In this document: positions 13,174 through 16,660 of the stretch, piece by piece | Position numbering within the stretch: position 1 is the stretch's first letter | How the letters are laid out: the number at the start of each line of letters is the position of its first letter | Assembly: GCA_051313645.2 (NCBI GenBank) | Contig: JBNRSN020000020.1 | Location: 106,454,001-106,518,000 of the forward strand | Origin: Centroscyllium fabricii | Taxonomy: Eukaryota | Length of the DNA stretch: 64,000 bases | Direction: 5' to 3' | The notes under the pieces: generated by a model | What the model was told of the DNA's origin: nothing | Database searches by the model: none | Seen by the model: only the letters and a program-made list of their open reading frames with translations | Position numbers and translations under genes: made by a program

Positions 13174-13621
13174 CATTCAATTCAATTCAATTTATTGTCA
13201 TTGCAAAGTGAACAGGCACAATGCAATGAAATGCAAACTTGCAAACTCCCAAGAAGATGCAGATATTAAAACGTCCTCTCCTATAAGTCCCCGTCCCATC
13301 CATTCCATCTGCCCCTGGCCGGGTGACGCTAGCGACGCCGACCTCAGTACTCCGACCACGACGGCTCCGGTGCTCCGATGACGCCGACCCCGGTGCTCCG
13401 ATCACGCGGACCCCGGTGCTCTGACCACGCCGACCTCTGTGCTCCGACCACGCCGACCCCGGTGCTCCGACCACGCCGACCTCTGTGCTCCAACCACGCA
13501 GGCCCCGGCGCGCCGACCTGGCGCTCCGACCACGAAGGCTGCGGAGCTCCAACCACGCCAACCTCGGTGCTCCGACCATGCCAGCCTCGGTGCGCCGACC
13601 CGAGTGCTCCAGTCAAAAGAA
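13174..13621 (-). mobile_element. Short retroposon with (TTGAA)n tail (Rex1/Babar- or L2-type end) carrying a GC-rich minisatellite
   Basis: Minus-strand end ...GCAATGACAATAAATTGAATTGAATTGAATGAA; candidate TSD AATGGAAcTT / AATGGAAgTT. Confidence 0.6.
13335..13612. repeat. 23-bp CpG-rich minisatellite, about 12 copies (ACGCCGACCCCGGTGCTCCGACC)
   Basis: Directly visible tandem units with substitutions. Confidence 0.9.
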
Positions 13622-14104
13622 AATGGAAGTTACACTCATCATTTAATTGGTTATTTCTTCCTTGACATCCATTGGCAGTTCAGAGAATCCTTCAAATAAT
13701 TTCTATGGTGGGATCTCACTTATGCCCTAGTTTCACTGGAGGCTAAGAATGCCAAGTATCCCAAGAATCGTCAAGAATCGAAATTCTTGGCGATTCTTGG
13801 TGATTCTGCAAGAAATGCGAAAAATACTTGGTTGAATCTTGGCGATTCTTGGTGAATTCTTGGCGATTCTGGACAAGGTTACGAATCTATCACGAATTAT
13901 TTTACGAATGAGGTACGAATCACTCACGAATCCACCACGAATTGCAAGAATTAATTAAGAATCCACTACGAACTCCACGAATTAGTTACGAATTCTAAGA
14001 ATCATCTAAGAATTGATTTTGATAGTTGACATTTCTGTTGATATTCCGGCATATTCCAGCATTTAAAAAAACCCTGAACCCCTGCTGAACCTGTCATTTG
14101 TACA

Positions 14105-14428
14105 ATGGGTGTTCGATGGAAAGCATGTGTGGCTCTGGCTGCGGAGTTGGAGCACTATCACGACCTGCTGTTCTTGGAACCCCCAAGAAGACAGAGAAGA
14201 CGCAAGCGCTGGTGGGTTCGACCATGGATGACACCGGCTAGAAGGCTAGAGTTTGGGCACTACCACAGACTGCTGCAGGAACTGAGGCTGGAAGATCAGA
14301 ACTCCTTCGTCAACTATGTGAGAATGCCACAGCAGATGTTCGATGAGCTCCTCCAAAGGATCACCCCTTTCATCCAGAGGCAGCACACCCGGCTGAGACC
14401 ACCCCTAAGTGCTGGACTGAAGCTGTGA
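14105..14428 (+). pseudogene. N-terminal fragment of a PIF/Harbinger (HARBI1-family) transposase, truncated before the DDE domain
   Basis: RRKRWWVRPW...GHYHRLLQELRLED..SFVNYVRM...FDELL..I.P.I.RQ.T..R..LS, the typical Harbinger transposase N-terminus; lies between TTA-flanked TIRs. Confidence 0.85.
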
Positions 14429-14462
14429 TTTCATGTGTGATGTTTGACTTCAGTCTGTCTGT

Positions 14463-14502
14463 GTTACCTGACGAAGGGGCAGAAGCTCCGAAAGCTTGTG
14501 AT
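14463..14502 (+). ncRNA. Minimal type-I hammerhead ribozyme motif in a Penelope-like pLTR fragment (about 14430-14550)
   Basis: Stem I GTTAC/GTGAT; core CTGACGA(A); stem II GGGGC-AGAA-GCTCC; GAAA; loopless palindromic stem III AGCT; AATAAA at 14507. Confidence 0.75.
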
Positions 14503-15333
14503 TTTAAATAAAACCGTTGGACTAAGAAACTGGTGTTGTGTGACTTCTTTGATAAATTGAGACAAATTTTATCTGAAAGTTATTTTTATTGTGGGAAAAA
14601 AATAAAGTGTTATGCAACAAAAGAAAACCAGGATTTAAACAGCAAGCAAGGTATAATGGTAATTTTTATAATAAATAACATATAACCACAATTTTGTTAA
14701 AACTATTACTATAACCACAAAATTTTATAACATAACCATAACTTTTTATAACTAATATTATATACAAAAACTTTTATAACTAAAACATTTAACCACTCAT
14801 TTTTACAACTATTTTTATAAACACAACTTTTTGGAAATAATTTTGAAAAAATCAAGAATGCCCAAGAATAGCCAAGAATGCACTACGAATCCACTACGAA
14901 TCAGTTACGAACGGTAAGAAAGGGTCACGAACGGTAAGAATGGGTCACGAATTGTTTACGAATCTACCACGAATTGGAAAATCGTGAACCCTCCTACGAA
15001 ATTTTTTGACAAACAAAAACTTTCTTTAAAACTCAAAGAACTCCCGCGAACTACCGCGAACTCTACGATTGCGCTACGAATCCACTACGAATCTACTACG
15101 AATCTACTACGAATCCACTACGAATTGCAAGAATGACCCACGAATCGGCCAAATTTCACAATCGGCACGATTCGGGAATTCGTAGCCTCCAGTGAAACTA
15201 GGGCATTAGAGTTTTCACACAGACTGAGGAGCTCCTCACCTCCCTCATTATTCCCTTTCTCTTGCAATCTGCTGGCTTCCAAAGCATAAATTTGGTGTGA
15301 CCTGACCATTACTCCTTGATTTATTTGGCCAGG

Positions 15334-16660
15334 CATGACTGAACAATGACAGACAGGTAAAGACCCCCTAGTCCATCCAGCCTGTCCCTCTCAATTGCGA
15401 TACCCTGTGTATCACAACACTCCCCACCTCACCCCACCCCACCCCACCCGAAACCTTGCGATCTCCTGGGAGAGGCAAAAAAAAGATAAAACCCTAGGCC
15501 AATTTGGGGGAAAAGATCTGGGAACTTCTTCTCCGACCCATCTAGGTGATGGAAACTAGTCCAGGAGATCACTCCGGCCCTGAATTCCCTGCAGTGCCCG
15601 CCTTATGTAAGAGGTGATCTCCGCCCCAGCCAGAAACAGGTCCAGATCTCACTTGAAGGAATTCAGCGAATCAGCGTCCAACACATGACACGCAGCCTGT
15701 TCCAGAGGTCCACTATTCTCTGGGAAAAGAACCACCTCCTGGCATTGAACCTAGATCTGGCCTTGTACAACTTAAATTTGTGACCACAGGTCCTTCCTAA
15801 AGGCCCTGTCACACCTAGACGTTTTAGCCAGCGTATGCAAATTTGGCTAAAACGCTGGGTTACGCTGAACTTTGGGCGTTTAATAGCGTATTCATAACGA
15901 GTTGGACGATAACGTATTATACGGTAGCAAACACGTTCAGTAAGTTCTGTGGTCGTAAATATGCGTTGGAGATACGTTACACATAGGTTCAAAGCACGTT
16001 ACTCATAGGTTAGAAATAAGTTCCGGGTACGCTTAGAAATTATCTCGACGTCTTTTGACTTATGAATAACTTACAAGTAACGTGTGTCGACGTGTGTCAA
16101 CGATCGCCTAACGTGCCTACAACGTATGGCCAGCGTATGCGGAACGTGTGAATCATACGCAAGATACGTGGAGAAATTTTGTGCATGCTCAAAATTTCTC
16201 GACTTACTCGAAGTACAACGACGTATGCAACTTATGGCCAGCGTATGCCAGCGTGCTCTTAACGTATGCATAACGTACCCATAACGTATCCGACGTAACC
16301 CAGCGTTTTAGCCAAATTTGCATATGCTGGCTAAAACGTCTAGGTGTGACAGGGCCTTAACATGTTTAGTTGAAACAAACTGTCAACTGGAACACAATCA
16401 ATTCCCTTCATTACCTTAGAAACCTCAATCAGATCACCTCTAAGTCTACGCTTCTCTAAAGTGCAGAGTCCCAACTCTTTTAGCCGATCTTGATAACTGA
16501 GATGCTTTAGACTGGGAATTATGCCAGTGGCTCCTCCTCTGCAGCCTCTCCAAGGCCTCAATATCACCCACCATGTGAGGGGACCAAAACTCGACACAGT
16601 ATTCCAAGTGCAACCTGGCCAAGGTCTTGTACAAGAACAAAATAGTATGCCTCATTTTAT
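15334..16660 (-). mobile_element. CR1 3' fragment of a distinct family, interrupted by a MITE
   Basis: LYKTLARLHLEYCVEFWSP...EKRRLRGDLIE...QLNML|GRTCGHKFKL...FFSQRIVDLWNRL; shares the 3' UTR module with 10848-11426. Confidence 0.88.
15801..16357. mobile_element. PIF/Harbinger (Tourist-like) MITE, 557 bp
   Basis: 64-bp TIRs with one mismatch (AGGCCCTGTCACACCTAGACG...); TAA TSD (15798-15800 / 16358-16360); removing it restores the CR1 reading frame. Confidence 0.95.

What the first reader, a model, noticed from the sequence alone, without database searches (positions are those of the whole stretch)
14430..14550. Penelope-type hammerhead ribozyme inside a Harbinger DNA transposon, at the transposase breakpoint
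Seen: 35 nt after the truncated transposase stops lies GTTAC-CTGACGAA-GGGGC AGAA GCTCC-GAAA-GCTT-GTGAT, then AATAAA. This has all hammerhead core nucleotides, stem I (with G-U pairs), stem II and a loopless palindromic stem III, with predicted cleavage after CUU at 14497. Known: Penelope-like elements carry such minimal hammerheads in their pLTRs, and these cleave best as dimers. Inference: a Penelope insertion replaced the DDE region and supplied a sense-strand 3' end (ribozyme plus polyA signal). If the chimera was then amplified, a DNA transposon is spreading a ribozyme together with a mini-ORF for a catalytically dead transposase fragment.
Basis: partly seen in the sequence, partly recalled or inferred. 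Interest (0 to 1): 0.75.

Follow-up and report, generated by a model that had tools for sequence, protein, structure and literature searches.

The report
Harbinger transposon carrying a Penelope hammerhead
A cut-and-paste DNA transposon family in this genome carries a piece of a retrotransposon with a minimal self-cutting RNA motif just behind its transposase gene and has copied it to about 2,900 places, most likely as a passenger rather than a working part.

Summary
The motif is real: a minimal type I hammerhead at 14463-14502, inside a Penelope terminal-repeat fragment (14432-14549), inside a 1,483-bp Harbinger bounded by inverted repeats (13723-15205). Co-mobilisation is shown: 1,086 exact copies of this junction and 2,944 Harbinger copies bearing the Penelope piece. 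Full-length 4.2-kb two-gene Harbingers already carry the piece 70 nt behind an intact transposase stop. The window copy is a later 1.1-kb deletion derivative, so the ribozyme's place at the breakpoint is a by-product. The ribozyme is not needed for spread: 18 of 30 sampled elements lack it, a 71-copy derivative lost it, and a 192-copy lineage (all 3 whole copies examined are full-length) has a broken stem I pair. Each element has one motif, and a published Penelope minimal motif did not cleave as a monomer. Best reading: a fixed passenger whose AATAAA may serve the transposase mRNA. No Penelope-free ancestor and no RNA data were found. I found no paper describing this; an earlier scan note describes the reverse nesting in another genome. 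Side result: 34 of 106 insertions have mismatched 3-bp target duplications.

The parts
13723..15205 (+). 1,483-bp non-autonomous PIF/Harbinger element, an internal-deletion derivative of a 4.2-kb two-gene parent; TTA flanks at 13720-13722 and 15206-15208
   Evidence: 1,086 exact junction copies
13723..13745 (+). left terminal inverted repeat, 23 bp
15183..15205 (-). right terminal inverted repeat, 23 bp
14105..14428 (+). 107-codon N-terminal stub of the Harbinger transposase; it ends before the DDE domain, which lies at residues 188-352 of the parent's 433-aa frame
14426..14431 (+). 6-nt filler at the deletion junction; supplies the stop codon; similar letters occur twice in the parent (just after the native stop and at the ribozyme's 3' strand)
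14432..14549 (+). Penelope pLTR 3' fragment; in the parent it starts ~60 nt further upstream, 70 nt after the transposase stop; 88-92% identical to the closest free Penelope copies
14463..14502 (+). minimal type I hammerhead motif (stem I 5 bp with two G-U pairs, extra A, stem II 5 bp, loopless palindromic stem III); predicted cut after 14497
14507..14545 (+). Penelope-derived AATAAA (14507-14512) followed by a GU-rich run; in the full-length parent it is the first hexamer after the transposase stop
14601..14606 (+). second AATAAA in the Harbinger's own AT-rich intergenic DNA, a possible native poly(A) signal

Best explanation
This is a minimal Penelope-type hammerhead motif that a 5'-truncated Penelope copy likely deposited behind an intact Harbinger transposase gene; it now sits in about 2,900 Harbinger copies and is likely a mostly inactive passenger. 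Step 1 (inferred; no empty-site ancestor found): a Penelope reverse transcript inserted, in sense orientation, about 70 nt downstream of the transposase stop of an autonomous two-gene Harbinger. Step 2 (shown): every sampled element that keeps the transposase 3' end carries Penelope-derived sequence there, and that sequence has family-private changes, so it predates the current burst. Step 3 (shown): internal deletions produced many non-autonomous classes; the window's class lost 1,094 bp (DDE domain, native UTR and the first ~60 nt of the Penelope piece), which brought the ribozyme next to a transposase stub. Step 4 (shown by identical copies with TIRs and different flanks; the mobilising enzyme is inferred): transposase and MADF protein from full-length copies moved this class to over 1,000 sites. 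Step 5 (inferred): with one motif per transcript and no stem III, it cleaves poorly if at all; the Penelope AATAAA may be used as the mRNA's 3' end simply because it comes first.
For: Full-length parents L072 and L145-L148 have an intact DDE_Tnp_4 ORF, a convergent MADF ORF and the hammerhead. 50 of 50 transposase-stop regions are followed by Penelope-derived sequence (30 were the first listed matches, and 20 I picked from further down the list, the first few because they looked atypical). The ribozyme is dispensable: of 30 left ends, 16 are 719-761-bp MITEs with no Penelope sequence and 2 belong to a class that lost the ribozyme but kept AATAAA (71 exact copies). 2 transposase-bearing copies with different flanks lack both ribozyme and AATAAA. 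A lineage of 192 copies has a stem I pair broken (GTGAT to GTGTT), and the 3 whole copies examined are 4.2 kb with both long ORFs. The one minimal PLE hammerhead tested as a single motif showed no detectable cleavage, and low cleavage as dimer or trimer (PMC4209133, sections read). The modelled active dimer (-18.3 kcal/mol) is less stable than two monomer folds (2 x -10.4) or the minimum-energy dimer (-24.9) (nearest-neighbour model only).
Against: The motif has 0 of the 8 Harbinger-private substitutions, all of which fall in the 141 flanking nt (P = 0.13; the 52 free copies were partly chosen by the motif). It is the least variable segment among 77 copies (0.0017 against 0.0033-0.0083; that sample is also biased toward intact motifs). 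46 of 50 transposase-3'-end copies keep a motif matching the core pattern. No Penelope-free version of the family was found, so fixation by advantage is not excluded. There are no RNA data on where transcripts end.
Confidence: 0.7

Rival explanations
1. The Penelope piece was kept because its AATAAA and GU-rich run give the transposase mRNA a better 3' end; the ribozyme rides along unselected.
For: It is the first hexamer after the transposase stop in a full-length copy. It is kept in the 192-copy lineage and in the 71-copy class that lost the ribozyme. No Penelope-free relative was found.
Against: A second AATAAA lies about 94 nt further on in Harbinger DNA. 2 copies with an intact transposase frame lack the Penelope hexamer and have different flanks. 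Non-coding derivatives need no poly(A) signal.
Confidence: 0.17
2. The ribozyme is an active, retained regulator: it pairs in trans with a second transposase RNA or with abundant Penelope RNAs through the AGCU palindrome and stem I, and cuts the mRNA 10 nt before its poly(A) signal, which would limit transposase output.
For: The core is intact and matches the pattern found 37,748 times genome-wide. The motif is in sense orientation just upstream of the hexamer. Most free Penelope motifs sampled share the 3' stem I strand and palindrome, so heterodimers are sequence-compatible. No private change in the motif (P = 0.13).
Against: Low in vitro activity of a minimal PLE motif even in tandem (PMC4209133); only 1 of 9 Xenopus retrozyme dimers cleaved (10.64898/2026.07.22.740005, passages). 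The modelled dimer is not favoured. A 192-copy lineage has a weakened stem I.
Confidence: 0.1
3. One reading: a Penelope insertion itself replaced the DDE region and created the chimera at this breakpoint.
For: In the window copy the transposase stub is directly followed by Penelope sequence, with a 6-nt filler.
Against: The window's Penelope piece is 100% identical over the junction-spanning 291 nt among its class and carries the Harbinger-private variant found in full-length elements. It has the same downstream junction as elements with an intact transposase. Its 5' end lies inside the longer piece of the parent.
Confidence: 0.03

Closest known systems
Minimal type I hammerheads (min-HHR) of metazoan Penelope-like elements (Cervera and de la Pena 2014, PMC4209133; parts 1-2 of 4 read)
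   Same: [quoted passage not shown]
   Different: Here the motif is propagated by a cut-and-paste DNA transposon, one per element, in a transposase 3' UTR, not by reverse transcription. Stem II is 5 bp, against 7-8 in Schistosoma.
PIF/Harbinger group of the PHIS superfamily (Han et al. 2015, PMC4482050; passages read)
   Same: TWA 3-bp target duplication, TIRs, DDE transposase plus Myb/SANT (MADF) ORF in the parent, many deletion derivatives and MITEs.
   Different: A retrotransposon pLTR fragment with a ribozyme motif is fixed between the two convergent genes. About a third of insertions have a mismatched middle base in the duplication.
Non-LTR retrozymes (10.64898/2026.07.22.740005, passages read; PMC7229834, search listing only)
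   Same: Non-autonomous repeats that spread a pLTR-related hammerhead.
   Different: Retrozymes are tandem hammerhead repeats proposed to be moved by Penelope enzymes through RNA. This element has one motif, TIRs and TWA flanks, and moves as DNA.
Clec2 3' UTR hammerhead of mammals (as described in PMC6155905, passage read)
   Same: A hammerhead in a 3' UTR.
   Different: Clec2 has a discontinuous type III motif in a host gene, described as likely co-opted. Here the motif is a minimal type I in a transposon, with no sign of conservation beyond inheritance.

Membership tests
Minimal type I hammerhead of Penelope-like elements | Core CUGANGA ... GAAA ... UH with stems I and II | tested here: met
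   0 chance hits in 200 shuffles of 20 kb
Minimal type I hammerhead of Penelope-like elements | Extra nucleotide between 9 and 10.1; G10.1-C11.1; palindromic 15.2-16.2 | tested here: met
   A14475; G14476-C14489; AGCU at 14493-14496, against the features listed in PMC4209133
Minimal type I hammerhead of Penelope-like elements | Derived from the pLTR of an element with an RT and GIY-YIG ORF | tested here: met
   The segment aligns with the repeats that flank 919-codon open frames in L195 and L196. RVT_1 E = 9e-10. GIY-YIG was not hit by my Pfam scans; it rests on a VVYLIRC...WYIGET motif that I recognise from recall and on one relative with PF01541 among 15 hits.
Rfam hammerhead families | Match to a curated covariance model | tested here: not met
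   No hammerhead hit at E<=10; the intact Penelope motif is missed too
Minimal type I hammerhead of Penelope-like elements | Self-cleavage (as dimer) | not testable with these tools
   Only energies were computed
PIF/Harbinger | TIRs and 3-bp TWA target duplication | tested here: met
   23-bp TIRs; T and A invariant in 87 of 87 flanks on both sides; 3-bp overlap in 29 of 31 elements with a paralogous site, out of 88 examined; middle base matches in only 72 of 106
PIF/Harbinger | DDE transposase ORF and Myb/SANT ORF in autonomous copies | tested here: met
   Parent L072: DDE_Tnp_4 E = 4e-28; MADF_DNA_bdg E = 2e-4, at the curated cut-off. The window copy has neither and is non-autonomous.
Non-LTR retrozyme | Tandem units each with a hammerhead, no TIRs | tested here: not met
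   One motif in the window; TIR-bounded dispersed copies

The most novel reading that the evidence does not exclude
An autonomous DNA transposon has co-opted a retrotransposon's terminal module as its transposase 3' end: a poly(A) signal gated by a dimer-dependent hammerhead that is switched on in trans by other transposase RNAs or by the tens of thousands of Penelope copies with the same palindrome. Transposase output would then be self-limiting and coupled to the activity of an unrelated retroelement.
Probability: 0.1. Interest if true: 0.75.

Novelty: new variant of a known kind. Interest (0 to 1): 0.35.

Why it matters
As it stands, it shows a route by which a ribozyme motif spreads without reverse transcription: about 2,900 copies moved as DNA, against 37,748 matches to the motif pattern genome-wide. 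Counts of dispersed minimal hammerheads therefore cannot all be read as truncated Penelope insertions. The family also offers a natural test set for whether minimal Penelope hammerheads cleave in vivo: the same young element exists with an intact motif, a weakened stem I, the ribozyme deleted, and the ribozyme plus AATAAA deleted. If the motif proved active on transposase mRNA, it would be a ribozyme-controlled DNA transposon, which I did not find in my searches. The mismatched target duplications, noticed on the way, may say more about Harbinger chemistry than the ribozyme does.

Tried and rejected
Rfam: no hammerhead match here or in an intact Penelope. Pfam on the 107-aa stub: nothing significant. 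Pfam on 4 Penelope ORF fragments: 0 families. A DNA search with 14428-14560 returned nothing because very common words are skipped; patterns were used instead. Folding: z = -1.2 for the 44-mer and +1.2 for 14430-14550, so stability is not evidence. Idea that a sister deletion joins the transposase exactly to the cleavage site: the guessed junction had 0 matches; the real junction lies 10 nt further into the transposase and 4 nt past the cut. Search for a Penelope-free empty site with a short gap: 0 matches; 0 of 50 stop regions were empty. Sequencing runs: no RNA holder listed. Four runs of other organisms hold the transposase region in pieces mostly 93-100% identical, but no contig joined across the Penelope segment, so presence or absence there is undecided. 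Contigs of two runs stop or diverge 38 nt after the stop codon, and one run has no cover over the segment; neither is taken as evidence. The selection test was not significant (P = 0.13). Literature: searches listed no paper on a hammerhead carried by a DNA transposon, and none on naturally mismatched Harbinger duplications. Most listings were judged by title and abstract start only, the library lacks most subscription journals and Repbase entries, and no supplements were read.

Full report
OBSERVATION. The isolated 44-mer folds into stems I and II, with an unremarkable z of -1.2. A generic descriptor finds this one site in the 64-kb window and none in 200 shuffles of the first 20 kb. Rfam has no match but also misses the motif of an intact Penelope. 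The features match those listed for minimal Penelope hammerheads in PMC4209133 (parts 1 and 2 of 4 read): an extra base after position 9, G10.1-C11.1, a palindromic 15.2-16.2 and a short stem I.

PENELOPE ORIGIN. A 34-letter pattern of the motif matches 37,748 places in the 7.2-Gb genome, against 0 for the reversed control. Of the first 30 loci, 6 are Harbinger-borne and 24 are free copies with a shared 3' tail. Intact members have the motif in repeats that flank 919-codon open frames, and one locus is a tandem array with a period of 3,096 bp. The frame has an RVT_1 domain (E = 9e-10). My Pfam scans did not hit GIY-YIG; a C-terminal motif that I recognise from recall and one relative with PF01541 point to it. 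The Harbinger-borne piece is 88-92% identical to the closest free copies over 151-178 nt, lies in sense orientation, and ends where several free copies end.

AMPLIFICATION. A search with 14330-14620 gave 333 candidates; the 40 scored were all 100% identical. All 30 fetched loci align to the element at 97.6-100%, with both TIRs and, apart from one duplicated pair, different flanks. The exact junction occurs 1,086 times. The Penelope-to-Harbinger downstream junction occurs 2,944 times and the left terminus 5,280 times. These are exact-match counts, so they are lower bounds.

THE HISTORY IS DIFFERENT. Two of those first 30 motif loci had a 433-437-codon transposase frame upstream. L072 is a 4,219-bp element with the same TIRs, a DDE_Tnp_4 transposase (E = 4e-28), a convergent MADF frame (E = 2e-4), and the Penelope piece between them, starting 70 nt after the stop. 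L145-L148 are further full-length copies with the motif. Against L071, the window element lacks positions 703-1796 and has a 6-nt filler that makes the stop codon. Other classes have other deletions: 1,770, 1,778, 1,890, 2,406 and 2,548-2,580 bp. Of 50 transposase-stop regions, out of 1,927, all carry Penelope sequence, 46 match the core pattern, 2 have a point change and 2 have a 124-bp deletion. A variant in the Penelope tail occurs 2,808 times, about the size of the Harbinger-borne set, so it is probably private to this family. The Penelope insertion therefore came first, into the 3' UTR of an intact gene, and the DDE loss came later. The insertion step itself is inferred, because no empty ancestor was found and other species' contigs did not decide it.

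PASSENGER OR PART. In 30 left ends taken in genome order, 16 are MITEs without Penelope sequence, 2 lack the ribozyme but keep AATAAA, and 12 carry the segment, 2 of them with single changes in the motif (for 4 of the 12 the locus ended early and the motif was seen). The ribozyme-less class has 71 exact copies. Two copies with an intact transposase frame and different flanks lack ribozyme and hexamer. A 192-copy lineage has GTGTT for GTGAT, leaving 3 contiguous stem I pairs; its 3 whole copies examined are full-length with both long ORFs. Against this, the motif has 0 of 8 Harbinger-private substitutions (P = 0.13) and is the least variable segment among 77 copies, but both samples lean toward intact motifs. 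Each element has one motif. In PMC4209133 a single Schistosoma minimal motif showed no detectable cleavage and tandem copies cleaved weakly. In 10.64898/2026.07.22.740005 (passages) 1 of 9 retrozyme dimers cleaved. My model of the active dimer is less stable than the alternatives, which ignores tertiary contacts and proteins. The Penelope hexamer is the first after the stop in a full-length copy, with a second one about 94 nt on; which is used is unknown, and no RNA holder was listed.

COMPARISON AND NOVELTY. Both components are members of known kinds: a minimal Penelope hammerhead (sequence features met, cleavage untested) and a PIF/Harbinger with TWA duplications and two genes (PMC4482050, passages). 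Nested retroelement fragments riding in DNA transposons are, from my own knowledge, common. What is less usual is that this one is fixed in the autonomous element and carries a ribozyme motif in the transposase 3' UTR. Searches listed no such case, within the limits of the library. PMC6155905 (passages) names Clec2 as a 3' UTR hammerhead in host genes. Earlier scan notes describe the reverse nesting in another genome (Harbingers inserting into a Penelope hammerhead, e1-7805368) and a hammerhead in a dispersed repeat (e1-7624621); I tested neither, and nothing similar to this DNA was on file.

SIDE RESULT. Target duplications mismatch at the middle base in 34 of 106 insertions, although paralogous empty sites confirm a 3-bp duplication (29 of 31 informative elements among 88, two of them trivially from a tandem pair). 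Carry-over of the donor's flank is my inference. PMC4561436 (passages and section 8) proposes TSD-derived 5' overhangs at mPing excision sites but saw TTA or TAA in 45 of 46 insertions from a TCA/TCA donor.

VERDICT. A real feature, really amplified, with the origin story corrected. Most likely a passenger (0.7). Use as a poly(A) signal (0.17) or as a trans-activated ribozyme switch (0.1) is open and directly testable with natural variants. Interest 0.35; new variant of a known kind.

Noticed in passing
flanks of the Harbinger copies, e.g. L001, L006, L014, L024, L038, L100: The middle base of the 3-bp target duplication differs left and right in 34 of 106 distinct insertions (21 TAA/TTA, 11 TTA/TAA, 2 other), even in copies over 99.5% identical. 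Paralogous empty sites show a true 3-bp duplication, and in 8 mismatched cases they match one side only. The matched share, 0.68, is above 0.5 (P = 3e-4) and fits the 2/3 I derive for an element that carries its old flank as an overhang, with random repair at each end. That would resemble piggyBac (recalled). For mPing, 45 of 46 insertions from a TCA/TCA donor were in TTA or TAA (PMC4561436, section 8 read), which does not show such carry-over.
   Followed up: partly
G000-wide; L195 (tandem units of 3,096 bp), L196: A young, abundant Penelope family with intact 919-codon frames, tandem arrays and 37,748 matches to the hammerhead pattern. Closest named relatives are shark proteins. Many copies have inverted 5' parts with two motifs on opposite strands.
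   Followed up: partly
L072 element and runs X10, X11, X13, X17: The same Harbinger family, including the MITE junction, occurs in four other coded organisms with long pieces 93-100% identical. Its closest database protein is 83% identical, and named relatives are from marine invertebrates. Horizontal transfer is possible but untested.
   Followed up: partly
L011, L032, L072: Elements inserted into or next to members of their own family: inside the TIR's TAA, inside the subterminal repeats, and head to tail sharing one target.
   Followed up: no
window 15800-16358: A second small element with 65-nt inverted arms, 98% complementary; probably an unrelated MITE.
   Followed up: no
window 20026-64000: A 21-bp tandem array of at least 2,098 copies, 92% matches, no indels, running off the window.
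   Followed up: no
window 13335-13600: A GC-rich 23-bp minisatellite of about 8-11 copies just left of the element.
   Followed up: no
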